64,000 bases of DNA, taken from the NCBI GenBank assembly GCA_017430235.1, contig JAFRNH010000008.1:2173-66172 (forward strand). The letters run 5' to 3'. Each line of letters begins with the position of its first letter. Within the stretch, counting starts at the first letter, position 1. Position numbers and translations under genes: made by a program. Positions 17,964 through 43,227 of this stretch are shown one piece after another. The notes under the pieces are model-generated. The model was not told where the DNA came from and ran no database searches. It saw only the letters and a list, made by a program, of their open reading frames with translations. This DNA is from Paludibacteraceae bacterium (GTDB lineage Bacteria; Bacteroidota; Bacteroidia; Bacteroidales; Paludibacteraceae).

Positions 17964-17991
17964 GTTGAGACGCACGGCCGTGCGTCTCTAT
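17964..17991. repeat. REP-like palindrome between convergent genes
   Basis: GTTGAGACGCACGGCCGTGCGTCTCTAT, with a perfectly palindromic 22-bp core. It starts 3 nt after the ispE stop and contains the TAG stop of the LRR gene. Confidence 0.85.
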
Positions 17992-19223
17992 CGTTTGGTC
18001 TTTTGTATCTCTTCTTTCACAAATTTTGTACCATCATACCTGATTTGATAGGTAAAGGATTCATTTCGTTCTACTTTTAGATATTCTGGAGCCAGAATTA
18101 TTTCCCCATTCTTTTCATCATAATGAGGTTCATAATACCTTTTCTGATAAGCATCCATAACATTCAACACATAAAACCCATTGATCATTTTATCTGAAAT
18201 GTTCCATACACATTTACATTTAGTTTCGCTATAATATTCCTCACCACTTCTTCCTTCTATTCTCGTATCATGAGAACGGCCATAAGTATATGAATGTTTA
18301 CATATAAATTTTAAAGAATGGGCACTCACCGCTATGAAATATAAATCAGTAAAATTTTCATAAGAATCCCTCGGCCAAGTTATTGGTAAATAGATATCAT
18401 AATTCATTTTTATCATAAAGACCTGTGTAGTATCATTAATATTACCTATCCATTTTTTTTCTAATGTTGGATATCTACCATCGAAAGACAGACTAACGTT
18501 CAATGAATCGATTATAATAATATTAATATTTTCGTCTTGTTCATTATCTTCGGGTTCTTTCAAATAGTATAGACTTAAAAAAAATTGATAATCATGAGGA
18601 TAGCAATAACTAACATTCTCTTTATCTGAGAGACACTCTAGTTTAAAGTTGATGGAATCAGCAATTTGTGTGTTTTCCAACTCTGAAAATTCATAATTAA
18701 AGTTATCCAAAAACCAATCGGGATATGTTCCTTTATAATCATAATGATATAGGAGTTCTTCTTGGAAATCACTATAAGCTATCGACGAAAAATCTTTTGG
18801 TAAGGAGATTGATTTCAATTTATAACATCCTGACAAGGCATGTTCACAAACAATATCGATTTTAGTCTTTTCAGAAAAACAAATTGAATCTAATTGACCA
18901 CAATAATAAAAAGCATAATTACCTATGCGCCTCACACTATCGCCAACTATCAATGTTTTCAATAAAGAATTTGCCATGAAAGCGCTATCTCCTATCTCAT
19001 TCACCTTATATTTTCGTCTTCTTTCCTTGATTATGTTTGGAACCACTACACGACATCCACTCTTTTTTCCATCCACTAACTTTGCTGTACGTGTGTTCGG
19101 ATCTAACTCATACGTAATGCTATCGCGCACTACCCTAAACGAGGCTGCTGTATTCTTCGCCATACACATCATGGAGAGGAGGAGGAAGCATAATAGGGAA
19201 ATGAAACGAACTGTGTTTTGCAT
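17988..19223 (-). CDS. BspA-type leucine-rich-repeat protein, secreted
   Basis: 411 aa with a signal peptide and LRR_5-like repeats (IGDSAFMANSLLKTLIVGDSVRRIGNYAFYYC...). Its TAG stop lies inside palindrome 17964..17991. Confidence 0.65.
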   Translation of the reverse strand: MQNTVRFISLLCFLLLSMMCMAKNTAASFRVVRDSITYELDPNTRTAKLVDGKKSGCRVVVPNIIKERRRKYKVNEIGDSAFMANSLLKTLIVGDSVRRIGNYAFYYCGQLDSICFSEKTKIDIVCEHALSGCYKLKSISLPKDFSSIAYSDFQEELLYHYDYKGTYPDWFLDNFNYEFSELENTQIADSINFKLECLSDKENVSYCYPHDYQFFLSLYYLKEPEDNEQDENINIIIIDSLNVSLSFDGRYPTLEKKWIGNINDTTQVFMIKMNYDIYLPITWPRDSYENFTDLYFIAVSAHSLKFICKHSYTYGRSHDTRIEGRSGEEYYSETKCKCVWNISDKMINGFYVLNVMDAYQKRYYEPHYDEKNGEIILAPEYLKVERNESFTYQIRYDGTKFVKEEIQKTKR

Positions 19224-21700: not shown

Positions 21701-23221
21701 TCAATTTTCTATCAAACCATTTCCCTTTTCATCTATGAAGAAATAACGATTGCCCAATTTTACCCGAAGCAATCCTTCTGAAAAGTAACCGACCTCATCA
21801 GCATCAAATGGCAGGAGCTTTAAACCATCAAACGGCACGGAATTCACTTTCGACTTATCATATTTTCTAAAATAATGACAATTCCGATAGTTGTCCTTAT
21901 CGCTCAATTCTTTCTTATAATTACAAAGCAATTCGACATCAGGCAAATTAGTCATTTTAACAATACCAGCCTTTAAATAATCGGCATACTGAGATGGTAT
22001 AGTATCTCCAGTATCAGTAAGGAACAAACCTCTGAATCCGTTATCGACTCCTATCCCAATATTATTTTGAAAACGTGAATATATATCAAATTGATTCGGA
22101 TAAACAAGTTGTCCTCCTTCGTCTTCCAACTGCCAATATTTCCCATCAACAAAACGCAGATAATTTTTCCCAAATTGAAATCGTGAGACTTCCTTTCCAT
22201 TCAAATCCAATTGTTTAGTCACATTATTTATTTCAGGAATTAAACTTTCGTCACAACCCAATTTTTCACTTATATATTCACTTAAATTCGTATCAATATC
22301 ATAAGCATTAAACAAAAAAATTCCCTTTATTAAGTAATGTTCTGACATCCATGGAAGATGTTCGTACAACTTGCGTCCGTCTTTATAAACATTAATACAT
22401 ATTGGAATTATTTGCAGTCCTCCTAAATCCTCTGAATAAAGACTGACAGAAAGGACCTCTATCAACAAACCATACATTAAACATATTTTATTATCATACT
22501 GAAACGGCACAACAACATTACCTTTCTCATCGACAATTCCATATTTATTTGTCTTATTATCATAAAGAGTAATTAAACCAACGCCATCAAAACTACAATT
22601 CAAAGATGGAGAAACTGTATAGCCATACTTTGTTTCCAATGTTTCCTTTCCTACGAGGTTTCCATCACACAGTTTTTCCAATGAAAAGTAAATTTGTTCA
22701 CAATCTTCAGGATTATTGTAATTCCAATTTGTTACTATTACAGGATATTCATTTTCGTACGATTCCATCTTTATGACAGTATCTTTTTTCACAAAATAAG
22801 TACTATGTCCAGAATCATTGTCAACATACATAACGTCAAAATCTCTAGTTTTATTTATAGTAATACGTTTACCTGAATATAACTCGTTACCATTTTTATC
22901 TATTATGTACGCATTAGAATTTTCTGTTTGAGGTATATAGCATCGTCCATTGTTAAACATAACCTCCTCATCCAGTCTAAACGCTCTTTGATTGGTCGCA
23001 TCCCATTTCATTGGAATCACCAAATCTCCAGACTTGTCGATAAATCCTATTTTCCTATCTTTTACAACAGCAGCAAGACCTTCATGGAAATGACCCACAT
23101 ACTCATACTCCTTAATTTTTTCGTTTAATTTTTTTATACCACTTACAGAAAGTCCATCAGAAGCAATCAAAAGAATACTATGAGTAATAAATAATAATGC
23201 AAAAAGAGTTTTTTTATTCAT
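21701..23221 (-). CDS. WG-repeat (KWG) containing secreted protein
   Basis: Repeated (Y/I)GFIDKSGxxVIP-type units. The likely start is MNKKTLFALLF at 23221; the ORF opens at 23263. Confidence 0.65.
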   Translation of the reverse strand: MNKKTLFALLFITHSILLIASDGLSVSGIKKLNEKIKEYEYVGHFHEGLAAVVKDRKIGFIDKSGDLVIPMKWDATNQRAFRLDEEVMFNNGRCYIPQTENSNAYIIDKNGNELYSGKRITINKTRDFDVMYVDNDSGHSTYFVKKDTVIKMESYENEYPVIVTNWNYNNPEDCEQIYFSLEKLCDGNLVGKETLETKYGYTVSPSLNCSFDGVGLITLYDNKTNKYGIVDEKGNVVVPFQYDNKICLMYGLLIEVLSVSLYSEDLGGLQIIPICINVYKDGRKLYEHLPWMSEHYLIKGIFLFNAYDIDTNLSEYISEKLGCDESLIPEINNVTKQLDLNGKEVSRFQFGKNYLRFVDGKYWQLEDEGGQLVYPNQFDIYSRFQNNIGIGVDNGFRGLFLTDTGDTIPSQYADYLKAGIVKMTNLPDVELLCNYKKELSDKDNYRNCHYFRKYDKSKVNSVPFDGLKLLPFDADEVGYFSEGLLRVKLGNRYFFIDEKGNGLIEN

Positions 23222-23276
23222 ACGTGAATTCAATTTTAAATCAATGAGAATAAGAATCTCCAATCAGAGCTGTCTT

Positions 23277-32387: not shown

Positions 32388-32495
32388 AAGTCTCTATCTT
32401 ATAAAACACTGCAAAGTTAAGGGAACTTACACAAATTACCGATTATATTATTATTTTTTTGCAATTTTCGCATTCGGAATCTAAAAACTATTCAA

Positions 32496-32503
32496 TAACT
32501 TTG
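32496..32503 (+). promoter_or_regulatory. candidate -7 promoter box upstream of repeat copy 3
   Basis: TAACTTTG, 15 nt before the 21-bp box. The box would then sit at about +8 of the transcript. Confidence 0.4.
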
Positions 32504-32517
32504 TACTCAAATCTAAC

Positions 32518-32589
32518 GGCGAGTTCTACAAATTCACCATTTAAATAAAAACTAGTATGAATTGTGGGTCATAAACTATAGAACCCACC
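32518..32589 (+). repeat. 72-bp MITE-like or leader element (copy 3)
   Basis: GGCGAGTTCTACAAATTCACC...GTATGAATTGTGGGTCATAAACTATAGAACCCACC. The ends are inverted repeats (GGCGAGTTCTA / TAGAACCCACC). It ends 15 nt before the ATG at 32605. Confidence 0.7.
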
Positions 32590-32604
32590 TAAAAAGGGAA
32601 TTTT

Positions 32605-34265: not shown

Positions 34266-35723
34266 ATGAAACATTTGAAAGAATTAGGAATATTGGTAGC
34301 TGTAGCAGCTGTTAGCGCTGGCGTTTCCTGCCTTTACGTTAAACATTATGGAAACAACGAGAAAATAATCATTCAGGAGACACAACAAGCTCCTGTTCAA
34401 TATTCAGCTTACACCCATGATGGTGAACCTGTCGATTTTACATACGCAGCTGATAAATCTGTGAATGCGGTCGTACACGTCATGACCACCTATGAGGTTC
34501 AACAATCTCAGATGAGCGATCCATTTTTAGAGTATTTCTTTGGTGAACGTAACTTTCAGCAAGCACCACAGAAAAGGCAAGCATCTGGTTCGGGAGTCAT
34601 CTTATCTAAGGATGGATATATCGTCACCAACAACCACGTTGTAGATGGTGCGGCACAAGTGAACGTCGTTTTGAATGACAAACGACAATTCAAAGCTCAG
34701 ATTGTCGGCACAGATCCAACAACCGACTTGGCTCTTTTGAAAGTAGATGCAGATGACCTTCCTACCCTACCCATTGGCAACTCAGACAACTTGAAAGTCG
34801 GCGAATGGGTTTTGGCGGTTGGTAACCCTTTCAATCTAACCTCAACCGTCACCGCTGGTATCGTTAGTGCCAAGGCACGTAACATCAATATTCTATCAGG
34901 CGACATGAAGATTGAATCCTTCATCCAAACCGATGCTGCAGTCAATCCTGGTAATAGTGGTGGCGCGTTAGTTAACACCCGAGGCGAATTGGTTGGAATC
35001 AATGCAGCCATTGCTTCACAAACAGGTTCATACACAGGTTACGCATTTGCCATTCCCACCTCTATTATGAGCAAAGTGGTGGCAGATTTGAAAGAATACG
35101 GAACAGTGCAACGTGCATTGTTGGGTGTTCAAATCAGAGACATCGATGCAGATTTTGCCAAAGAGAAGAATTTGGAGACGATGGAGGGTGCTTATGTCGC
35201 ATCCGTAGGCAGTCAGAGTGCAGCGAGCGACGCAGGCATCAAGGAGGGTGATATCATCACTCACGTCTCTGGCAATAAAGTAAAAACAGTATCTGAATTA
35301 CAAGAAAAGATTAGTCGCTTCCGTCCTGGTGATAAAGTTCAAATCACCTTACTAAGGAACGGCAAACAAGAGACTGTTTCCGTCACACTGAAGAACATGA
35401 TGGGTAACACCAATGTGGTGAAGAACTACGACACCAAGCAATTAGGAGCCACACTCACTCCGCTTACCGATAAGCAGAAGAGTAATTTGGGCATCAACTA
35501 CGGACTACAAGTGACAAGTGTAGAAAAAGGTGGTCGTTTCCAACAAGCAGGTATTCCTAAGGGATACATCATCTTACGAATCAATAATCAGAAGGTGACT
35601 TCCACCACAGATGTTGAAAGCATCATCAGCACCTTGAAAGGCGAACAAGAAAAAGCACTCTTCATATCAGGCATTCTACCGAACGGAAAGGTGGTTTACT
35701 ATGCTGTGGATATGAATGAATAA
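34266..35723 (+). CDS. htrA: HtrA/DegQ-family periplasmic serine protease with two PDZ domains
   Basis: 485 aa with the catalytic triad context (TNNHV, DLALLKV, GNSGGALV). Confidence 0.9.
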   Translation: MKHLKELGILVAVAAVSAGVSCLYVKHYGNNEKIIIQETQQAPVQYSAYTHDGEPVDFTYAADKSVNAVVHVMTTYEVQQSQMSDPFLEYFFGERNFQQAPQKRQASGSGVILSKDGYIVTNNHVVDGAAQVNVVLNDKRQFKAQIVGTDPTTDLALLKVDADDLPTLPIGNSDNLKVGEWVLAVGNPFNLTSTVTAGIVSAKARNINILSGDMKIESFIQTDAAVNPGNSGGALVNTRGELVGINAAIASQTGSYTGYAFAIPTSIMSKVVADLKEYGTVQRALLGVQIRDIDADFAKEKNLETMEGAYVASVGSQSAASDAGIKEGDIITHVSGNKVKTVSELQEKISRFRPGDKVQITLLRNGKQETVSVTLKNMMGNTNVVKNYDTKQLGATLTPLTDKQKSNLGINYGLQVTSVEKGGRFQQAGIPKGYIILRINNQKVTSTTDVESIISTLKGEQEKALFISGILPNGKVVYYAVDMNE

Positions 35724-35745
35724 ACATGAATCGATTAATCATAGC

Positions 35746-35786
35746 AAACGAAGGTGTGTCCAAAATGACACACCTTCGTTTTTTGG
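35746..35786. terminator. intrinsic terminator after htrA, possibly shared with the convergent helicase gene
   Basis: AAACGAAGGTGTGTC-CAAAAT-GACACACCTTCGTTT followed by TTTT. Confidence 0.8.
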
Positions 35787-35849
35787 GGGGCTAGTTATAA
35801 TAATCTATATCCATAAATACCGTTTGCAATACACTATGTGTGAAAATAA

Positions 35850-38800
35850 TCAATTATCATTCTTTTTCAAATATAACGCAGGTAGAAATATAGCATACTC
35901 CATATCATCCTCTTTACAATACCACCAAACAACAAAACGAATCTTCGCCTTAAAAGGTGCATAACCCATCTTCTGATATTCTATCAGTTTATCTGAAAAA
36001 GCTTTTGAAAATTTGAGAACTTTATGATTATCTTTCAACAAAAAATCTGCAGAAATATCAAGATTCATACCACTACGGAGTCTGGTAATCTGTGCTTTTT
36101 TATCCTTGAAAAATGCAAGATTGACATCCTTATGTGTCAAAGGAACTACTATTTGTTCTAAACTATCATATTGGGTATTGTCTATGCGAAACTCTGTTGC
36201 AACAGGCTGTAAATTATCCAATGCTGTAGTATTATAATGAATATTGAGATATCTTTTGGCTCTTGTAAAACCAACATATAGTTTACGTTTCTCTTCATCT
36301 GTACTAATACTAGGAGAGTTGAGGTACATATATACTTGATCAAACTCACGTCCCTTAGCTTTGTGTATAGTTGAAACCATGACCGTAGATTTTTCTGTCT
36401 TTATGAAATCATCTATTGAAGATTCATTTAGGAACAGAGTGAAATCAGACATGTATTTCTCCTCATAATTAGAATCAAACGTATTGACGATATCATTAAT
36501 TAAACTTAGGCAAGCGCTCTGCGAATATTGTTCATTCAAAGCACGCTTTGCATCTTCCCATACTTCTTTACTGATTTTAGGAGAAACGATATTTTGCCGA
36601 ATCATTTCCGTAAAGAATCTCAGTTCAGCTATATCAAACAAGTTGAAACCATCATTACTTTGAATCAACTTACATTTTATACCATTACGTTTTAGAATGC
36701 CTAAAATAATAAGTGCCTCATGATTGGTACTCGTTAACACTGCACAAGTATCATCCTTATAGTTCGTTTTTAAATCATTAATCACTGCAGTTTCAAATCC
36801 ACCTCTACAAGAATGTTTAGTCAACACCACCTTTCCATTCGTCTGTTGCTTAGAAACAATTGGCTCTGACTTCATTCTGTTTTGAATCGAAGTGACAAAT
36901 TTATTGGCAAATGTAACAATCTCTTCTGATGAACGATAGTTCTCCAACAACTTATATGCCTTAGCATTATACTTAGTAATCAACTGCTGAAAATAATACG
37001 AAGAAGAACCTCTGAACTGATAAATATTTTGATCATCATCTCCGACTGCAATCACCCGCAGATTATCATTACTCTCCATCAGCGCTTCCACCAAATGGAA
37101 CTCTTCCGCAGTCATATCTTGTGCCTCATCTATAACAAGCACCTTTTTAATAATTCTATTAGGTTCTACATCTTTGTCAAGAATCATTTTTGTTGCCTGC
37201 GGTATCACATCTTTCACATCCTCTATTTTCCCCATTCTGCCAATCAAATCAAAACAATAAGAATGAAATGTTTTAATTTCCAAAAAGCTAATATCATTTT
37301 CCAACAAACTCCTCAATCTGACTTTAAACTCTATAGCGGCAGCACGCGAAAAGGTAAGCATTAGTAACTGTTCGCACTTGATATCCTCCAATAACAACAA
37401 AGATGCTAATTTATGAACCAGCACACGAGTTTTTCCACTACCAGGACCTGCAGAAATAACAATGTGAGGAGACAAATCATCGTCAATTATCTCTTTCTGT
37501 AAAGGTGAAAGGGATTTAAACAATTTATCGTATTTTTTAGGCGTAATATTTCTTCCTATTTGAACAAGCCGTTCCTGAGTGAAATATTTTGAAAGAAACC
37601 GTTTGTAATCCATGAAGAAATAATCATTTACAAAGGTTATTGCCGCATTATAATCCCGCACCATCATATTGGCAAATTCACCTACAATATGTATTTGTTC
37701 TATTTTATGACGATAAAATTCATCTAGTTTACGATAATCTTCTTTAGTATATTGCAAACGTCCATTCTCTTTTATTCGATTAATATTCAGTCCCATATAT
37801 AACACAAGAAAACCACCTTCCAACTTCACCGAGTTAATTTTAGCAAGGAAAAGCAGAGCTTCCTCTATATCATGTACTTCAGCATGATACTCCACAAACA
37901 AATCATTATTGTAACCTTCCAAAAGTTCAATAATCGAAAACAGAATCAAAGGTTCCTTTTTCTGTGAACTTTCAAATCGTTGAGATAGAAACTTCACAAT
38001 AAAATTAGAAACAGAGAGAATTTTTATCTGCTTATTTTTCAATTCATCAATAGTCATTTGAGGAATAACTTCAACCAAATCCTGATTCTCTTGATTAAGT
38101 CTTACATATGACTTTGATTTCCAAAACAGCAAAATGGTTTTAATGTTTTTTACATTCGTTTTTATCGATAATTTTTCGGCTTCCTCATTTAACAATTTCA
38201 AATTCAACAAAATGCCATTGTCCGTCAACTTATCCAAAATAAACATAATAAGTTTTTGAAACGCAACTAAAACTTCGAGTGATTTCTTCGTGGATTCAAT
38301 AAAAGCAGAGATATCTCTATCGTCTTTCAAAATTTTCTCCTGCCTCATGATTTGCACTACGTCAACCACTTCTTCTTTAGTCATACCAAGTATATCTGCC
38401 AAATAATCCACCCTAGACTCAGCAGCCTCTGTATCCTCACGTGTGATATGTTTGCACGATATAAGTGATTTAATGACTCGTTTCGCCCTTGTTTTTGCTT
38501 CTATGCTTAGAAACAATTTTGACGCATCTATTTTCGTCGCTGCCTCTTCATAGTTTTTTGCCAAAATACTTGTAGCATAGACATGTGGAGAGTTCTTACC
38601 TCTTTGAATAAATCCAGCATTTTCTAAAGCTTGTAAAGCCGTTTTAACGCGAGTTTCAACATCGATTACCTCATAATTCCATCCAGCAGTTCTCGCTATT
38701 TCCAAGGCAGAAGAGCAAACTGACTTGCGATTCTTAGTCATGTTTTTTATCGCACGCCATATTTGATTAATCTCCGCACATGATATACGGGTTGAATTAT

Positions 38801-40595
38801 TAAGAATAAAGTGTTTATCTAAATCATTATCAGAATATAACACATAACATTCCGCTTCTAGATTCGGATCACGACCCGCTCGTCCCGCCTCTTGTACGTA
38901 GTTCTCTAACGAGTCTGAAATATCATAATGAACCACCAACTTAACATTAGCTTTGTCCACTCCCATACCAAAAGCTGATGTAGCCACCATTACTTGTACT
39001 GTGTCATTGATAAAATCGTCTTGATGACTTTGCTTTGCTTTCGGATCCATTTTTCCATTAAATGGTAATGCTAATATACCATCATTCTTCAACTGATCCG
39101 ACAACTTTACGGTTTGTTTCGTCCTTGAAACATAGACAATTGTCGGACAATCTTTCGTCTTAATTAATTCACGAAGTTCTAAATATTTTCTTGTTTCAGG
39201 TTCAACTAAACGTACTTGATAACGAAGGTTTGTGCGAGAAGCATTAGAAGCATACAACTCCAGTTCCACTCCCAAATTATCCTTGAAATAATCTTTTATA
39301 TCAGAAATGACTTTCTGCTTAGCTGTTGCAGTAAAACATGAGACAGGTATGTTTTTTATACCTTTCTTCTCTGCCAATTCCCGGATGTACTTGCCTATGT
39401 ATAAGTAATCAACCCTAAAATCTTGTCCCCATGCACTAAAACAATGTGCTTCGTCAATCACAAACCGAGCTATCTGACGAGATAATAAAAGCTTCTCTAT
39501 TGTTTTACTTCTTAATGATTCAGGAGATATATAGAGAATGGAAGCCACACCAGAATCTACTTTTTCTATTGCATTCTGGCGTTCGAGAGGGCTTAATAGT
39601 CCATTGATTGTAACCGCATCTACAATCCCTTTTTTCTCTAAATTGTCCACCTGATCTTTCATAAGAGATTGTAAAGGTGATATAACAACAGTCAAGGCTC
39701 GTTCTGTAATCCCCGAAATTAGCGCAGGAAGTTGGAAAGTTAGACTTTTACCTCCACCTGTGGGGAATATGGCTAGCAATGATTTATTATTAACAGCTGC
39801 ATTTACAGCATTTTCTTGCAAAGGTTCTCCATCATATCTTCTAAAACTCTCAAAACCAAAAATACGCTTAAGATAAATTTGAGGATTCAAAAACTCTTTG
39901 CAGTACAAACATCTATCACCACATGGCGTTCCTCGCAATCTTTTCAATACACGCTCTATCAATGGGAATTGTCGGTGGACCCAATGAGGAATAATAGAGG
40001 TTTTATCATTGGTTGAAATAATCGCAAGAGCGTAAGCTACCTCAATCGGAGCATATCCTACCATTTTTTCTAGTGGTGCATTACTACATATCTTCTTTTC
40101 AAAAAAAGTGGAAATAAGACGAACCGTATCCCCACAAGGTTTCAATTGTATATAATTGAAAAAACCATTGAATTCTGGTTTGTCATAAAGAAGATTAACT
40201 AATATCTGCAAGTATGTCTTATCTAGCTGTTGCAACGCATTTATTTCATCATAAAAGAGTTCCTTTGTTTTAATTGCATCATTAAGTGGATTAGACAAGT
40301 CATCTGATTGTATTTTATCATCTTTCAAAAGACTATGATAAGGTCTTTCTGGAAATAGCAACGGAGAAACATACAATGTATCAATGTAACGGACATTTGT
40401 CGATACATCAAAATAATTTGCATCGTGATGACAAATATTATGTCCACAAATATATTCGAATCCTTCAATAAATTTTTCAAATTCAGTCTTTTGAGATGTA
40501 TGTAATTTAACACCATTGGATTTTATTGCACCAAAATCCAACACTTTTTTTTCTTGAGGATTTACCTCCAGATCTATAAAAACCAAGTCTGACAT
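35850..40595 (-). CDS. 1581-aa fusion of a DnaQ-like exonuclease, a RecQ-family helicase and a UvrD/PcrA-like helicase
   Basis: - aa 1-125: DEDD-like exonuclease (VFIDLEV, GHNICHHD).
- aa 225-232: Cys cluster CGDRCLYC.
- aa 245-590: RecQ core (FPTGGGKSLTFQLPA, FVIDEAHCFSAWGQDFR, ATSAFGMGVDK, YVQEAGRAGRD).
- aa 1026-1455: SF1 UvrD-like core (SAGPGSGKTRV, LVIDEAQD, GDDDQNIYQFRG, LENYRSS, TIHKAKGREFD, YVGFTRAK). Confidence 0.85.
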   Translation of the reverse strand: MSDLVFIDLEVNPQEKKVLDFGAIKSNGVKLHTSQKTEFEKFIEGFEYICGHNICHHDANYFDVSTNVRYIDTLYVSPLLFPERPYHSLLKDDKIQSDDLSNPLNDAIKTKELFYDEINALQQLDKTYLQILVNLLYDKPEFNGFFNYIQLKPCGDTVRLISTFFEKKICSNAPLEKMVGYAPIEVAYALAIISTNDKTSIIPHWVHRQFPLIERVLKRLRGTPCGDRCLYCKEFLNPQIYLKRIFGFESFRRYDGEPLQENAVNAAVNNKSLLAIFPTGGGKSLTFQLPALISGITERALTVVISPLQSLMKDQVDNLEKKGIVDAVTINGLLSPLERQNAIEKVDSGVASILYISPESLRSKTIEKLLLSRQIARFVIDEAHCFSAWGQDFRVDYLYIGKYIRELAEKKGIKNIPVSCFTATAKQKVISDIKDYFKDNLGVELELYASNASRTNLRYQVRLVEPETRKYLELRELIKTKDCPTIVYVSRTKQTVKLSDQLKNDGILALPFNGKMDPKAKQSHQDDFINDTVQVMVATSAFGMGVDKANVKLVVHYDISDSLENYVQEAGRAGRDPNLEAECYVLYSDNDLDKHFILNNSTRISCAEINQIWRAIKNMTKNRKSVCSSALEIARTAGWNYEVIDVETRVKTALQALENAGFIQRGKNSPHVYATSILAKNYEEAATKIDASKLFLSIEAKTRAKRVIKSLISCKHITREDTEAAESRVDYLADILGMTKEEVVDVVQIMRQEKILKDDRDISAFIESTKKSLEVLVAFQKLIMFILDKLTDNGILLNLKLLNEEAEKLSIKTNVKNIKTILLFWKSKSYVRLNQENQDLVEVIPQMTIDELKNKQIKILSVSNFIVKFLSQRFESSQKKEPLILFSIIELLEGYNNDLFVEYHAEVHDIEEALLFLAKINSVKLEGGFLVLYMGLNINRIKENGRLQYTKEDYRKLDEFYRHKIEQIHIVGEFANMMVRDYNAAITFVNDYFFMDYKRFLSKYFTQERLVQIGRNITPKKYDKLFKSLSPLQKEIIDDDLSPHIVISAGPGSGKTRVLVHKLASLLLLEDIKCEQLLMLTFSRAAAIEFKVRLRSLLENDISFLEIKTFHSYCFDLIGRMGKIEDVKDVIPQATKMILDKDVEPNRIIKKVLVIDEAQDMTAEEFHLVEALMESNDNLRVIAVGDDDQNIYQFRGSSSYYFQQLITKYNAKAYKLLENYRSSEEIVTFANKFVTSIQNRMKSEPIVSKQQTNGKVVLTKHSCRGGFETAVINDLKTNYKDDTCAVLTSTNHEALIILGILKRNGIKCKLIQSNDGFNLFDIAELRFFTEMIRQNIVSPKISKEVWEDAKRALNEQYSQSACLSLINDIVNTFDSNYEEKYMSDFTLFLNESSIDDFIKTEKSTVMVSTIHKAKGREFDQVYMYLNSPSISTDEEKRKLYVGFTRAKRYLNIHYNTTALDNLQPVATEFRIDNTQYDSLEQIVVPLTHKDVNLAFFKDKKAQITRLRSGMNLDISADFLLKDNHKVLKFSKAFSDKLIEYQKMGYAPFKAKIRFVVWWYCKEDDMEYAIFLPALYLKKNDN

Positions 40596-40970
40596 ACTTT
40601 TCTTAACTAATCGACAAAAAGAAATATGTTCAATCTACACTATTCTGCTATTTTCTCTTTCTCGTTTCACAAAACTCATATTGCGAAACGTCCTAAGTCA
40701 CAATCTGCGCATCAAAACACAAACAATAGCAAATGTAAGAAATATTCAGAAATCAGAAGGATAATATAATTATATTCCTCAAAATAACATTAAAAACACA
40801 GTCAACCCATACCTCCTCTAAAAATTTATCCCATGCGCAAGGTTGCTTAATAAAAAAAATATAATTTTGGAGCATTAACGTTGATTGAAAATTGACTTCA
40901 ACGGAAAAATAACCAATTGTTATACAATAGGGAGTACTATACTTTTATTTCTCTTTTTAAATTAAAACAC

Positions 40971-41093
40971 ATGAAAAAACTTAATTTAGATTTCATAAAA
41001 AAAGCCGATTATATATTGGTTTTCTTATGTGCCGCCGTAGGTCTTCTTACCACTATAGCAACACAGACGTCAGCGACCTACCCAACCGTCTGA
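40971..41093 (+). CDS. possible 40-aa membrane mini-protein
   Basis: ATG-initiated ORF MKKLNLDFIKKADYILVFLCAAVGLLTTIATQTSATYPTV with one hydrophobic segment. It is locally GC-richer than its surroundings and below the ORF-track size cutoff. It may be a gene remnant. Confidence 0.2.
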   Translation: MKKLNLDFIKKADYILVFLCAAVGLLTTIATQTSATYPTV

Positions 41094-41176
41094 AGAAGGA
41101 AGGCATAGAGGTTAGAATAAGACATTATGAATAAACTAAATGCAAAGCATAACCCAACATTAAAAATATATACAAC

Positions 41177-42697
41177 ATGAAGAAGACAAATTTACTCTTA
41201 TTATTAGCAATCGTATGCTACATTAGTGGTTTTGCCAATGACAGATACTATCTAATCAAAGATGGACGACTCCAAAATGGAGCCACAATCGAACCTTCTG
41301 AGATTTTCCAAGAATTTGCAGAAGGAGATGGTTACGCCACAGTCAAACACACAATCCTTTTTTCAACCGCAAAACTCACAGGTATGCAAGGACTGCATGT
41401 CGGCACTAAAAATCTAATTATAGAGTATGCTGTTGATCCTATAAATCTCTATGGAGAAGAAGAATCCGTTAACAGATTTGATCCAGCTATTATGATAAAC
41501 TGTGTTTCAGACGAGAACTCTAAATTCAACTTAGACGCATATAAGATCATCAATCCTGATGATGCCTCCCAACCAACCACCGTCGAACCATACATGATAA
41601 GCATTAATTACATAGATGCCAAAGGAGAAGGGTGCGACAAAGAATGGAACAAATACGAGGGATTCACATACGCACGAAACAACGAAGAGGTGAAGGCTGT
41701 CTTTGTTTCTTACATGCACGAATACGAGCACTACCCAACAGATGGAGTCCTTAAAATAAAAAATCTGTACTTTGAAACCAATACAGAGGAACATCCTATT
41801 TATGGTTGTCAATTCGATTCTTATGACACATGGACCGAAAAAATGAGCATGAATAGTTATATTTCACGAGTACAAAGAAGAATAGATCCATCTGATTCAA
41901 CTGGGAAAACTTACGTAAAAGATGAAAATGGGAAAATTATCTATGACACATTAGACATGAGAAAACAATATTTCCAGGATGGTCTTGCTCTCACTTGCGA
42001 CAGCTGCCAAATATACTATGAAACATGTTACGTATATGATGAAAAAGTTCTGGAATATGAGAAAAAATATCCCGTGTCTGAATTACGTTCTTCTTTATCT
42101 GTAATGGAAGATTCTAAAACATTATATTTCAAGGATATACCATTGTCTGAAGATGTTATAAAGGCAGGTAAGATAAAAGTATCATGTATCGCAAAAATCA
42201 ATCCTCGATTATTTAACGGTGAACCAGAAAAGGAGAAAGCTAACATCAAGCCAATACCCATCTATCTGAAGTTCGACAACTCGGAAGATGCCGTCGCAGC
42301 ATTTATAGATACAGCTTTTCAATATGTCTGGTCAAAAACATCTGGAGAATTTGAAATTCCTGCAGGAGCAAAGAGCGTAACAGTCGAATTCAGATCAAGA
42401 CCAAATCTCAACTACTTGGTTGACTATTTCTTGATCTCTTATAATGGTTCAGCAAACAATGCTCTTATGACCATCAACAGCGATGGAAAAACAATTTCCA
42501 TCTACCCTAATCCAGTAGATAACGAGATACTTTTCAATAGCAATGAAAAAATTGAAAGCGTAGAAATCGTCTCTCTGAACGGCAAAGTTATGACGTGCAA
42601 AGCAGAGAACAACCGTGTGAACGTTTCTTCATTGGCTTCAGGTGAATATATCATCATCGTCAACAAAAACATCACCAGCAAATTTGTCAAAAAATAG
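41177..42697 (+). CDS. secreted protein of unknown function with a T9SS C-terminal sorting domain
   Basis: 506 aa with a signal peptide and a C-terminal roughly 75-aa Por-secretion-tail pattern (ISIYPNPVDNEILF...GEYIIIVN). Confidence 0.7.
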   Translation: MKKTNLLLLLAIVCYISGFANDRYYLIKDGRLQNGATIEPSEIFQEFAEGDGYATVKHTILFSTAKLTGMQGLHVGTKNLIIEYAVDPINLYGEEESVNRFDPAIMINCVSDENSKFNLDAYKIINPDDASQPTTVEPYMISINYIDAKGEGCDKEWNKYEGFTYARNNEEVKAVFVSYMHEYEHYPTDGVLKIKNLYFETNTEEHPIYGCQFDSYDTWTEKMSMNSYISRVQRRIDPSDSTGKTYVKDENGKIIYDTLDMRKQYFQDGLALTCDSCQIYYETCYVYDEKVLEYEKKYPVSELRSSLSVMEDSKTLYFKDIPLSEDVIKAGKIKVSCIAKINPRLFNGEPEKEKANIKPIPIYLKFDNSEDAVAAFIDTAFQYVWSKTSGEFEIPAGAKSVTVEFRSRPNLNYLVDYFLISYNGSANNALMTINSDGKTISIYPNPVDNEILFNSNEKIESVEIVSLNGKVMTCKAENNRVNVSSLASGEYIIIVNKNITSKFVKK

Positions 42698-42760
42698 TAG
42701 AGACGCACGGCCGTGCGTCTCCACATGGCCGTGCATTTCTATATATCCGTGCGTCTCCAC
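42697..42760. repeat. composite REP-like array (one near-perfect copy plus two partial copies)
   Basis: GTAGAGACGCACGGCCGTGCGTCTCCAC, then ATGGCCGTGCATTTCTAT, then ATATCCGTGCGTCTCCAC. The first G is shared with the TAG stop of the T9SS cargo gene. Confidence 0.85.
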
Positions 42761-42816
42761 AAAATGGAACCGAGCCAAATTCAAATATATTTTTTATTAC
42801 CCCAATAAATAATTGA

Positions 42817-43227
42817 TTATTCTACGATCGTAGCCACTAGTTTTCTTCGACCTCCATAATTACGAAACTCACACAAATAGATACCTTGCCACGTACCTAA
42901 ATTCAGTCTGCCATTTGTAATCGGAATCGAAAGACTCACCCCCACCACCGTTGATTTAGCATGGGCAGGCATATCATCCAAACCTTCCAACGTATGGTCG
43001 TAATAGGTCTCCCCCTCTTTTATCATACGATCAAAGATTTTCGCCATATCCGACCGCACATCTGGGTCTGCATTCTCATTGATGGACAAACCACAACTGG
43101 TATGTTTCACAAACAAATGGAGCATTCCCACTTGTGGCAACGGACTAGGCAAATGCGAGAGGACCTCATTAGTGATCAAATGAAATCCTCTCGATTTTTC
43201 AGACAACGCAAATTCTACTTGTCTCAT
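42817..43227 (-). CDS. yjbQ: YjbQ/UPF0047 family protein (secondary thiamine-phosphate synthase)
   Basis: 136 aa with the conserved HTSCGLSINENADPDV and GTWQGIYLCEF motifs. Confidence 0.85.
   Translation of the reverse strand: MRQVEFALSEKSRGFHLITNEVLSHLPSPLPQVGMLHLFVKHTSCGLSINENADPDVRSDMAKIFDRMIKEGETYYDHTLEGLDDMPAHAKSTVVGVSLSIPITNGRLNLGTWQGIYLCEFRNYGGRRKLVATIVE

What the first reader, a model, noticed from the sequence alone, without database searches (positions are those of the whole stretch)
35850..40595. A single 1581-aa ORF fuses a DnaQ-like exonuclease, a RecQ helicase and a UvrD-like helicase in an AT-richer one-gene insertion
**Seen in sequence**
- One uninterrupted ORF carries three modules.
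- (i) An N-terminal DEDD-type exonuclease-like module (VFIDLEV, GHNICHHD).
- (ii) After a CGDRCLYC cluster, a complete SF2 RecQ core, motifs 0-VI including DEAH (FVIDEAHC) and QEAGRAGRD.
- (iii) After about 430 aa of unassigned sequence, a complete SF1 UvrD/PcrA-type core (GPGSGKT, VIDEAQD, GDDDQNIYQFRG, TIHKAKGREFD, VGFTRAK), plus a 125-aa unassigned tail.
- By eye the gene is clearly more AT-rich than its neighbours htrA and the T9SS cargo gene.
- It is flanked by a 580-bp AT-rich non-coding stretch, and it converges on htrA rather than belonging to an operon.

**Established knowledge**
- Exonuclease plus RecQ is the architecture of eukaryotic WRN.
- Standalone nuclease-helicase giants and UvrD-like proteins recur in anti-phage systems such as Gabija GajB and Nhi.
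- I do not know of a characterised protein that combines both helicase superfamilies with an exonuclease.

**Inference**
- It is either a horizontally acquired single-gene defence or anti-plasmid factor, or a novel recombination/repair machine.
Basis: partly seen in the sequence, partly recalled or inferred. Interest (0 to 1): 0.75.

Follow-up and report, generated by a model that had tools for sequence, protein, structure and literature searches.

The report
Exonuclease–RecQ–UvrD triple-fusion helicase gene
A real, widespread but unstudied bacterial gene joins a proofreading-type exonuclease and two different DNA helicases in one 1581-residue protein; here it lies in a DNA block recently exchanged between rumen species, and its role (repair or defence) is unresolved.

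Summary
Window 35850-40595 (-) is one intact 1581-aa ORF, identical to NCBI MBR0501819.1 ("RecQ family ATP-dependent DNA helicase", Paludibacteraceae MAG).

**Architecture**
- It has five parts: a minimal DnaQ-like DEDD exonuclease fold, a RecQ-family SF2 core without the RecQ Zn/RQC/HRDC regions, a 430-aa family-specific linker, a UvrD-like SF1 core, and a 125-aa orphan-fold tail.
- The fusion is not an artefact. The middle region marks 904 protein clusters (50% identity) and sits at the same position in every full-length hit listed (about 1570-1880 aa).
- The exonuclease carboxylates and the key ATPase residues of both helicases are invariant in 155 members.

**Origin**
- The gene tree conflicts with taxonomy.
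- About 7.5 kb around the gene is 93-100% identical to a species whose flanks are only 67-79% identical.
- Conspecific contigs have deleted 4.3 kb of the gene.
- The AT-richness is mild (z about -1.7).
- The 581-bp spacer is a deletion scar, not an insertion edge.

**Function**
- No partner gene is conserved, only about 5% of neighbouring genes look defence- or mobile-element-like, the family is essentially absent from phages, and no PADLOC model spans the protein.
- The best guess is an accessory, mobile, WRN-like end- or fork-processing enzyme (0.42). Single-gene defence remains open (0.3).

The parts
35850..40595 (-). Complete 1581-aa ORF (stop codon 35850-35852), identical to NCBI MBR0501819.1, 'RecQ family ATP-dependent DNA helicase', Paludibacteraceae MAG
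40221..40595 (-). aa 1-125: minimal DnaQ-like (DEDD) 3'-5' exonuclease fold. Carboxylates D8, E10, D58 and D106 are invariant. The canonical Exo III His position holds N/S101, and a family-specific H87 is nearly invariant.
   Evidence: AlphaFold model pLDDT 89.7; Foldseek hits to ExoX, ISG20L2, DinG-exo and phi29 exo; hhalign to a DnaQ-like exonuclease; residue conservation in 155 members; no Pfam hit
39876..40220 (-). aa 126-240: helical region with a conserved four-Cys cluster (C170, C225, C229, C232), a putative zinc site that precedes the RecQ core
   Evidence: The Cys cluster is lost in the distant Nostoc and Aliarcobacter homologs.
38796..39875 (-). aa 241-600: RecQ-family SF2 helicase core (motifs 0-VI, DEAH). 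The canonical RecQ Zn-binding, RQC and HRDC regions do not follow it.
   Evidence: Pfam DEAD and Helicase_C; TIGR00614 at 278.9 bits, above the 219.8 cutoff, but covering only model positions 3-343 of 470; TIGR01389 at 307 bits, below the 640 cutoff; K283, D381, E382, H384, Q568 and R572 invariant and R575 in 154/155
37521..38795 (-). aa 601-1025: family-specific linker with two weak winged-helix signals (about aa 647-674 and 730-760) and a highly conserved C-terminal part (aa about 920-1025)
   Evidence: no PDB sequence match; no hhalign similarity to the canonical RecQ C-terminus; 904 clusters carry it, always at about aa 580-1060 in the full-length hits listed (about 1570-1880 aa)
36231..37520 (-). 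aa 1026-1455: UvrD/PcrA-like SF1A helicase core (motifs I-VI)
   Evidence: Pfam UvrD-helicase, AAA_19 and UvrD_C; equivalog models far below their cutoffs; K1055, D1156, E1157, Q1159, D1186, Q1189, R1221 and R1445 invariant in 155/155
35853..36230 (-). aa 1456-1581: C-terminal alpha/beta domain with no detectable relative outside the family (orphan fold)
   Evidence: AlphaFold model pLDDT 90.6; best PDB Foldseek E = 0.37; best BFVD hit E = 5e-3 with rmsd 9.3; no Pfam or PDB sequence hit
35746..35781 (+). Perfect 15-bp inverted repeat followed by TTTTTT. It is an intrinsic terminator for htrA and lies between the two convergent genes.
40596..41176 (.). 581-bp spacer upstream of the gene (GC 0.308). 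It is a deletion scar. Relatives carry 1383 bp more here (a 246-aa MBL-fold gene and a 256-274-aa gene), with the junction at 41045/41046.
35819..40143 (.). Segment missing from two conspecific metagenome contigs (L088, L096). The loss removes codons 152-1581 and leaves a 151-codon remnant.
35600..43000 (.). Approximate extent of a block that is 93-100% nt-identical to a sister species whose flanking DNA is 67-79% identical. This indicates a recent inter-species exchange that includes the gene.

Best explanation
The gene encodes a self-contained, horizontally mobile, accessory DNA-processing enzyme.

**Shown**
- One polypeptide carries a minimal DnaQ-like DEDD exonuclease fold, a RecQ-family SF2 motor, a UvrD-like SF1A motor, a winged-helix-containing linker and an orphan C-terminal domain.
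- The exonuclease carboxylates and the key ATPase residues of both motors are kept across phyla.

**Inferred from the known properties of RecQ, UvrD and DEDD enzymes**
- Both motors translocate 3'->5' on single-stranded DNA.
- The protein loads on 3'-tailed ends, gaps or forked or D-loop DNA and unwinds it.
- The N-terminal exonuclease trims the freed 3' end, as in WRN or DinG.
- The UvrD-like motor adds protein-stripping or second-arm unwinding.

**Likely role**
- The most likely role is auxiliary genome maintenance in gut and rumen anaerobes, processing stalled forks or recombination intermediates.
- It is not a dedicated immune function. It is dispensable and moves between lineages.
For: **All three catalytic modules are under purifying selection.**
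- D8, E10, D58 and D106 are invariant in every member aligned at those columns.
- The Walker A, Walker B and arginine residues of both helicases are invariant, apart from one R575H, in 155 members. The set includes proteobacterial and cyanobacterial plasmid copies.

**The architecture is fixed.** It is the same in every full-length hit listed among the 904 clusters.

**The domains belong to genome-maintenance families**.

**Most homologs are solitary chromosomal genes among housekeeping neighbours.**
- No partner is conserved in 87 loci.
- Only about 5% of 251 neighbours look defence- or mobile-element-like.

**Other support**
- One subclade sits 3-6 bp downstream of a canonical recQ, which looks like an operon.
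- Identity is high across phyla (47-57% over about 1580 aa, linker and tail included), and the main Bacteroidota clade is roughly taxon-congruent. Both fit a conserved DNA substrate rather than a fast-evolving sensor.
- The gene is dispensable, as shown by the 4325-bp deletion in conspecifics.
Against: - No member has been studied, so there is no biochemical or genetic evidence.
- The canonical Exo III His/Tyr is absent (N/S101), so exonuclease activity is not assured.
- The patchy distribution, inter-phylum transfer, presence on plasmids, strain-level loss and occasional placement in defence islands are also what a defence gene would show.
- No SOS-type CTAA-N5-TTAG box occurs anywhere in the window.
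- Two motors of the same polarity have no precedent, so the mechanism is largely inferred.
Confidence: 0.42

Rival explanations
1. It is a single-gene anti-phage or anti-plasmid defence enzyme. The helicases recognise and unwind foreign DNA ends or replication intermediates, and the exonuclease degrades them, by analogy with Nhi, Hna or Gabija.
For: - Domain-level PADLOC hits to DpdF and PsyrT (RecQ part) and to GajB (UvrD part).
- Patchy distribution and inter-phylum transfer.
- A recently exchanged block.
- Deletion and a possible frameshift in close relatives.
- Some homologs lie in defence or variable regions: L154 sits between a 1743-aa DEAD-box helicase with a PF09369 (MZB) domain and PLD/SNF2/SLFN genes; L003 has AbiEii, Fic and YafQ nearby; McrBC and OLD/GajA-like proteins are neighbours in a few loci.
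Against: - No full-length PADLOC model matches.
- Only about 5% of 251 sampled neighbours are defence- or mobile-element-like, and most loci are housekeeping.
- In the window the neighbours are htrA, a T9SS cargo gene and hisB.
- Conservation is high, with no hypervariable region.
- The gene is stably retained within a large Bacteroidota clade.
Confidence: 0.3
2. It is a plasmid or mobile-element maintenance or establishment factor. It would process incoming or replicating element DNA, and the chromosomal copies would be derived from elements.
For: - Twelve plasmids carry a copy covering at least 80% of the query.
- On Aliarcobacter pACIB the gene lies directly beside parA/parB and rep/dnaB-like genes.
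- On a B. finegoldii replicon labelled as a plasmid it lies near ParA/ParG and two ssb genes.
- TraG/TrwB fragments lie near L153.
Against: - Most of the 276 genome hits are on large chromosomal contigs with no element genes nearby.
- The window has no conjugation, integrase or replication genes.
- Only 12 of 72,556 plasmids carry a full-length copy.
Confidence: 0.1
3. It is an artefact or the ordinary housekeeping helicase. Either a mis-assembly or read-through joined separate recQ and uvrD genes, or it is simply the organism's RecQ ortholog.
For: NCBI names it a 'RecQ family ATP-dependent DNA helicase'.
Against: - Hundreds of independent assemblies from several phyla give the same uninterrupted architecture of about 1600 aa.
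- RecQ, UvrD, PcrA and Rep equivalog models score far below their cutoffs.
- The RecQ C-terminal regions are absent.
- A canonical 680-aa RecQ coexists next to it in some genomes.
Confidence: 0.02

Closest known systems
WRN (eukaryotic Werner syndrome protein)
   Same: An N-terminal DEDD-fold 3'-5' exonuclease is fused to a RecQ-family helicase core in one polypeptide. Both activities have 3'->5' polarity (established knowledge).
   Different: - WRN is DEDDy and has the RQC winged-helix and HRDC domains. It has no SF1 helicase.
- Here the Exo III His/Tyr position holds N/S.
- RQC and HRDC are not detectable.
- A complete UvrD-like motor and an orphan tail are added.
- No sequence-level relationship of the exonuclease to WRN was seen.
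DinG of Staphylococcus aureus and Bacillus subtilis (DEDD exonuclease + SF2 helicase)
   Same: - It is a bacterial fusion of an N-terminal DnaQ-like exonuclease to a helicase.
- S. aureus DinG (9ii8) is among the top structural matches of the N-terminal model.
- B. subtilis DinG degrades ssDNA 3'->5' (PMC12525004 abstract).
   Different: The DinG helicase is XPD-like (5'->3', FeS type), not RecQ. It has no second helicase, no linker and no tail.
RecBCD / AddAB / AdnAB
   Same: They follow the concept of two helicase motors plus a nuclease in one DNA-end-processing machine (established knowledge).
   Different: - Those are multi-subunit.
- Both of their motors are SF1, and in RecBCD they have opposite polarity.
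- Their nuclease is PD-(D/E)xK.
- Here a single chain carries one SF2 and one SF1A motor, both expected to move 3'->5', plus a DEDD nuclease.
- NCBIfam recB and addA matches are partial and far below cutoff.
RecQ-like and UvrD-like defence helicases (DpdF, PsyrT/RqlH, GajB; single-gene Nhi and Hna)
   Same: - The best PADLOC matches are DpdF and PsyrT on aa 240-625 and GajB on aa 1027-1462.
- Nhi and Hna show that a single nuclease-helicase protein can confer immunity (my own knowledge).
   Different: - The matches are to domains only, with no full-length model.
- The partner genes (the dpd cluster, PsyrA/RqlI, GajA) are not conserved next to the family and are absent from the window.
Canonical bacterial RecQ and UvrD/PcrA/Rep
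   Same: The helicase cores and all catalytic motifs are shared.
   Different: - Scores are 307 against a cutoff of 640 (recQ) and about 120 against cutoffs above 900 (uvrD, pcrA).
- The RecQ Zn/RQC/HRDC regions are missing.
- The tail does not match any solved structure, so no relation to the UvrD/PcrA C-terminal domain was seen.

Membership tests
RecQ family (TIGR00614 subfamily) | SF2 core with motifs 0-VI including DEAH, scoring above the curated cutoff | tested here: met
   278.9 bits against a cutoff of 219.8, aa 242-598; catalytic residues conserved in 154-155 of 155 members
RecQ ortholog (TIGR01389 / PRK11057 equivalog) | Full-length match including the Zn-binding, RQC winged-helix and HRDC regions, above the equivalog cutoff | tested here: not met
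   307 bits against 640 and 239 against 1015. Coverage stops at model position about 344. hhalign of aa 577-1030 against the canonical RecQ profile gives probability 0.1%.
UvrD/PcrA/Rep SF1A helicases | SF1A motifs I-VI with the UvrD-helicase and UvrD_C Pfam domains | tested here: met
   PF00580 at 107.9 bits, PF13361 at 79 bits, PF13245 at 76 bits; motif residues invariant
UvrD/PcrA/Rep orthologs (equivalog models) | Score above the equivalog cutoff over the full length | tested here: not met
   123 against 965 (uvrD PRK11773), 122.9 against 911 (pcrA), 103 against 951 (rep)
DEDD (DnaQ-like) 3'-5' exonucleases | RNase H-like fold with four conserved carboxylates in Exo I, II and III | tested here: met
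   Confident model. The top Foldseek hits include many DEDD exonucleases, though E is only 3e-3 to 1e-2. D8, E10, D58 and D106 are invariant. Exo III aligns by hhalign.
DEDD (DnaQ-like) 3'-5' exonucleases | Fifth catalytic residue, His (DEDDh) or Tyr (DEDDy), in Exo III | tested here: not met
   The position five residues before D106 holds N (134) or S (17). An invariant H87 nearby might substitute, but this is untested.
DEDD (DnaQ-like) 3'-5' exonucleases | Recognition by the sequence family model (Pfam RNase_T or similar) | tested here: not met
   No Pfam hit at E <= 10 for the query or for four distant homologs. No PDB sequence hit.
Gabija (GajA + GajB) | UvrD-like GajB encoded next to the OLD-family nuclease GajA | tested here: not met
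   The GajB models match only aa 1027-1462. No GajA is in the window. GajA-like neighbours occur in 2 of 145 neighbour proteins.
Dpd / PsyrTA (RecQ-like DpdF or PsyrT) | RecQ-like helicase within the dpd gene cluster, or paired with PsyrA/RqlI | tested here: not met
   Domain-level match only. No conserved partner in 87 loci.
Defence-island gene (guilt-by-association criterion) | Most family members lie close to known defence genes | tested here: not met
   About 5% of 251 neighbours from about 50 dereplicated loci are defence- or mobile-element-like. Clear islands appear only in some loci. The sample is small and the ORF calls are simple.
Mobile-element cargo (integrative element, prophage) | Integrase, tRNA attachment site or flanking direct repeats; presence in phage genomes | tested here: not met
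   No tRNA in the window. No flanking repeats. No integrase among the neighbours. No full-length phage hit. One IMG/VR locus only.

The most novel reading that the evidence does not exclude
The family is a previously unrecognised class of single-chain DNA machine. An SF2 (RecQ) motor and an SF1A (UvrD) motor of the same polarity work on two strands or arms of a branched DNA and feed a non-canonical DEDD exonuclease. It acts as a stand-alone barrier to incoming plasmid or phage DNA, or as a bacterial WRN-plus-anti-recombinase. The orphan tail and linker act as the substrate or partner sensor.
Probability: 0.3. Interest if true: 0.8.

Novelty: new variant of a known kind. Interest (0 to 1): 0.6.

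Why it matters
**No studied precedent**
- I found no studied protein that couples helicases of two superfamilies with an exonuclease in one chain.
- This architecture is nevertheless fixed, catalytically intact and spread over Bacteroidota, Bacillota, Spirochaetota, Campylobacterota, Pseudomonadota and Cyanobacteriota.

**What characterisation could show**
- How two 3'->5' motors cooperate.
- Whether a DEDD fold lacking the usual His/Tyr is active.
- What the two orphan regions bind.

**Annotation**
- The label 'RecQ family ATP-dependent DNA helicase' hides a distinct family of at least several hundred 50%-identity clusters.
- The family is common in gut and rumen anaerobes.

**Local genome dynamics.** The locus is a clean natural example of inter-species block exchange followed by strain-level gene loss.

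Tried and rejected
**Sequence and fold searches that found nothing**
- Pfam, NCBIfam and PDB sequence searches of the N-terminus, linker and tail found nothing beyond two weak wHTH hits.
- hhalign of the linker against the canonical RecQ C-terminus showed no relation.
- Foldseek of the tail against PDB and BFVD gave no credible match. The single BFVD hit, a phage protein named 'DNA polymerase III alpha', has E = 5e-3 and rmsd 9.3 and was not trusted.

**Searches for a system or regulator**
- PADLOC gave only domain-level hits. One is a 'possible alternative Cas3' model (C3a193) that reaches aa 689. I did not follow it up.
- Clustering ORFs from 87 loci found no conserved partner. The only recurrent neighbour cluster is a set of generic ABC ATPases at varying distances.
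- The Bacteroidetes SOS box CTAA-N5-TTAG (PMC8565304) has no site in the window.
- The sigma-70 promoter scan is uninformative (27 sites found, 24 expected). It does not cover the promoter types of other bacterial groups, and Bacteroidota promoters are, to my knowledge, of such a type.
- No flanking repeats or tRNA genes mark an insertion.

**Literature.** Four searches found no paper on this fusion. A bioRxiv hit and the polyvalent-protein paper proved irrelevant.

**Limits of what I could do**
- I recall a 2011 study of three B. fragilis RecQ homologs. It is not in the library, so I did not use it.

Full report
**1. The observation**

The window holds one uninterrupted ORF at 35850-40595 on the minus strand, 1581 aa long.
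- Pfam places DEAD (aa 258-429) and Helicase_C (aa 470-575) in the first half. It places UvrD-helicase, AAA_19 and UvrD_C (aa 1031-1455) in the second half.
- NCBIfam's RecQ-family subfamily model passes its cutoff (278.9 against 219.8 bits). It aligns only to model positions 3-343 of 470.
- The RecQ, UvrD, PcrA and Rep equivalog models all fall far below their cutoffs.
- No model covers aa 1-240, 600-1025 or 1456-1581.
- The exact protein is in public databases as MBR0501819.1, 'MAG: RecQ family ATP-dependent DNA helicase [Paludibacteraceae bacterium]', on a 371-kb contig.

**2. The N-terminal module**

Sequence searches do not recognise an exonuclease. Three other lines of evidence do.
- *Fold.* An AlphaFold model of aa 1-240, built on 18 homologs, is confident (pLDDT 89.7, pTM 0.86). 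It shows a beta1-beta2-beta3-alpha-beta4-alpha-beta5-alpha core within the first 125 residues or so, then helices.
- *Fold matches.* DEDD 3'-5' exonucleases or polymerase proofreading domains make up most of the best PDB matches: ExoX (TM 0.58 on the target), ISG20L2, S. aureus DinG, RNase AS and phi29 polymerase. Probabilities are 0.84-1.0, but E-values are only 3e-3 to 1e-2.
- *Profile alignment.* hhalign against a DnaQ-like exonuclease from a Thiothrix plasmid aligns DTL..FPE.P.H.L. It also aligns NPLNDA with that enzyme's Exo III motif HRALSDA.

Conservation in 155 full-length members:

| Residue | Conservation |
|---|---|
| D8, E10, D58, D106 | never substituted (D8 and E10 fall in alignment gaps in 3 members) |
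| H87 | 154/155 |
| Canonical Exo III His position | N or S |
| C170, C225, C229, C232 | 150-152 of 155 |

The module is therefore a divergent, minimal DEDD domain with all four metal-binding carboxylates and a non-canonical fifth residue. The four-Cys cluster, a likely zinc site, lies between it and the RecQ core.

**3. The other unassigned parts**

- *Linker (aa 577-1030).* It has two weak winged-helix signals. It has no PDB sequence relative. It shows no profile similarity to the Zn/RQC/HRDC part of canonical RecQ proteins encoded beside some homologs.
- *Tail (aa 1450-1581).* It folds confidently (pLDDT 90.6). It matches nothing credible in PDB or BFVD.

**4. The fusion is a family, not an artefact**

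- A homolog search returned the maximum of 8000 hits. The best 120 are nearly all 1578-1611 aa, cover about 100% of the query, and share 54-97% identity.
- A scan of one genome per species confirmed 276 matching stretches in Bacteroidales, Flavobacterium, Puia, Sphingobacteriales, Oscillospiraceae, Ruminococcus, Lachnospiraceae, Tissierellales and Treponema.
- tblastn against plasmids found copies covering at least 80% of the query at 28-52% identity. The hosts are Bacteroides, Phocaeicola, Aliarcobacter, Paracoccus, Thiothrix, Nostoc, Scytonema and Cereibacter.
- A profile of the family-specific linker finds 904 clusters at E <= 1e-3 (283 at E <= 1e-30) among 1.84 billion representatives. In every full-length hit listed it sits at about aa 580-1060 of a protein of about 1570-1880 aa. 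The shorter hits look like fragments.
- The Walker A, Walker B and arginine-finger residues of both helicases are invariant in the 155 members, apart from one R575H.

**5. Composition and local anatomy**

- The gene is only mildly AT-rich. GC is 0.345 against 0.395 +/- 0.029 (z = -1.72), and GC3 gives z = -1.79. Three of the 52 ORFs have lower GC, and its codon usage is unremarkable.
- The neighbours are ordinary: PorP, an M16 peptidase, DUF3109, DUF4403, htrA, a T9SS cargo protein, UPF0047, hisB and a carboxylase.
- No tRNA, integrase or flanking repeat is present.
- A 15-bp perfect hairpin with a T-run (35746-35781) terminates htrA between the convergent genes.
- The 581-bp spacer is a deletion scar. 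Three close relatives carry 1383 bp more at a clean junction (window 41045/41046). That extra DNA encodes an MBL-fold protein and a 256-274-aa protein.

**6. Comparative evidence for mobility and dispensability**

- *Recent exchange between species.* Against a sister species (L001, L011, L078, L091), flanking proteins are 73-91% identical. The helicase, the T9SS cargo protein, UPF0047 and DUF998 are 94-100% identical. In 500-bp windows, nucleotide identity jumps from 0.67-0.79 to 0.93-1.00 between about 35.6 and 43.0 kb. This block was exchanged between species recently, and its left edge coincides with the 3' end of the gene.
- *Loss in the same species.* Two independent metagenome contigs of the window's own species (flanks 93-99% aa) lack window 35819-40143. 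Only the first 151 codons remain.
- *Possible frameshift.* One relative has a 1-nt insertion that splits the gene. This may be real or a MAG error.
- *Absence in more distant relatives.* Contigs with a 70%-identical htrA, one of which also keeps DUF4403-htrA synteny, have no homolog within 10 kb.
- *Gene tree.* In a neighbour-joining tree the window's Bacteroidales clade is sister to a large Firmicutes clade. It is separate from the main Bacteroidota clade, which holds other Paludibacteraceae. The tree has no support values.

**7. Context of homologs**

- Clustering ORFs from 87 loci shows no conserved neighbour. The exception is a subclade (66-69% identity) where a canonical 680-aa RecQ ends 3-6 bp upstream.
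- Among 251 neighbour proteins from about 50 dereplicated loci, only a few are defence- or mobile-element-like. These are McrBC, OLD/GajA-like ATPases, SLFN/AlbA_2, one type I restriction subunit, XRE regulators, two integrases and one IS66.
- Individual loci range from purely housekeeping to a clear defence island.
- On Aliarcobacter pACIB the gene abuts parAB and rep.
- The family is essentially absent from phages.

**8. Interpretation**

*Shown.* The protein is a fixed, catalytically conserved fusion of an exonuclease, an SF2 helicase and an SF1 helicase. It is solitary, accessory and horizontally mobile.

*Inferred.* The inference rests on the known 3'->5' polarity of RecQ, UvrD and DEDD enzymes. 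The protein most likely unwinds 3'-tailed or branched DNA and trims the 3' end, like WRN or DinG. The UvrD-like motor would add protein displacement or action on a second arm.

| Reading | Confidence | Main basis |
|---|---|---|
| Accessory genome maintenance | 0.42 | Housekeeping contexts, recQ linkage in one subclade, high conservation |
| Single-gene defence | 0.30 | Patchy distribution and transfer, strain-level loss, some defence-island loci |
| Plasmid or element function | 0.10 | Plasmid-borne copies, one beside parAB/rep |

The evidence does not settle the choice between them.

**9. Novelty**

No characterised protein, solved structure or defence model with this architecture was found. 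The parts are known kinds and the family already carries a generic database name. I therefore rate it a new variant of a known kind (nuclease-helicase machines), with two orphan regions and an unusual pairing of helicase superfamilies.

Noticed in passing
window about 35600-43000 (compared with L001, L011, L078, L091): A block of about 7.5 kb holds the helicase, the spacer, the T9SS cargo gene and UPF0047. It is 93-100% nt-identical to a sister species whose surrounding DNA is 67-79% identical. This points to recent inter-species recombination with a sharp left edge at the htrA/helicase intergenic region.
   Followed up: yes
window 40596-41176 (junction 41045/41046): The 'non-coding AT-rich stretch' is a deletion scar. 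Relatives carry 1383 bp more, encoding a 246-aa MBL-fold protein and a 256-274-aa protein of unknown function transcribed divergently from the helicase.
   Followed up: yes
L088 and L096, about 11551 (corresponds to window 35819-40143): Two independent conspecific metagenome contigs carry an identical 4325-bp deletion that leaves a 151-codon remnant. DNA left of the junction is 91% identical to the window and DNA right of it is 98.6% identical, so these genomes are mosaics here as well.
   Followed up: partly
window 32388-32604 (between DUF3109 and DUF4403): Relatives (L001, L011, L078) have two extra genes here, a 168-183-aa ORF (called as Por_Secre_tail in L001) and an approximately 865-aa Cthe_2159-family protein. 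The window lacks them, so this is a second indel in the same neighbourhood.
   Followed up: no
window 17988-19223 and 21701-23263: Two ORFs have lower GC (0.326 and 0.321; GC3 0.28 and 0.26) than the helicase gene. They are stronger compositional outliers than the flagged gene. I did not examine them.
   Followed up: no
L003 7953-9995, L009, L012, L085 (also L004): In the 66-69%-identity subclade a canonical RecQ (680 aa, with RecQ_Zn_bind, RQC and HRDC) ends 3-6 bp before the giant helicase gene. This suggests co-transcription of the two RecQ-family genes.
   Followed up: partly
L154 1-24770: One Firmicutes homolog sits in a dense defence-like island. Upstream lie three unknown genes and a 1743-aa DEAD/MZB (DUF1998-type) helicase. 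Downstream lie SNF2 helicases, a PLD-nuclease/DUF3427 protein, NUDIX and SLFN/AlbA_2.
   Followed up: no
L079 (labelled Alistipes) and L025 (labelled Treponema) in the tree: Copies labelled as Bacteroidota and Spirochaetota nest inside the Ruminococcus/Oscillospiraceae clade. This reflects either very recent inter-phylum transfer or MAG binning errors.
   Followed up: no
L078 about 11650 (window about 38940): A single extra T (TT to TTT) splits the gene into ORFs of 557 and 1039 aa in a 94%-identical relative. It could be a pseudogene or a sequencing error. A 557-aa member of the same 90% cluster exists in NCBI and Logan.
   Followed up: partly
L149 8842-14800 (Aliarcobacter cibarius plasmid pACIB): A 35%-identical full-length homolog lies directly beside parA/parB, and about 4 kb from the plasmid's rep and dnaB-like genes. 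That is the maintenance core of a 238-kb mobilizable plasmid.
   Followed up: no
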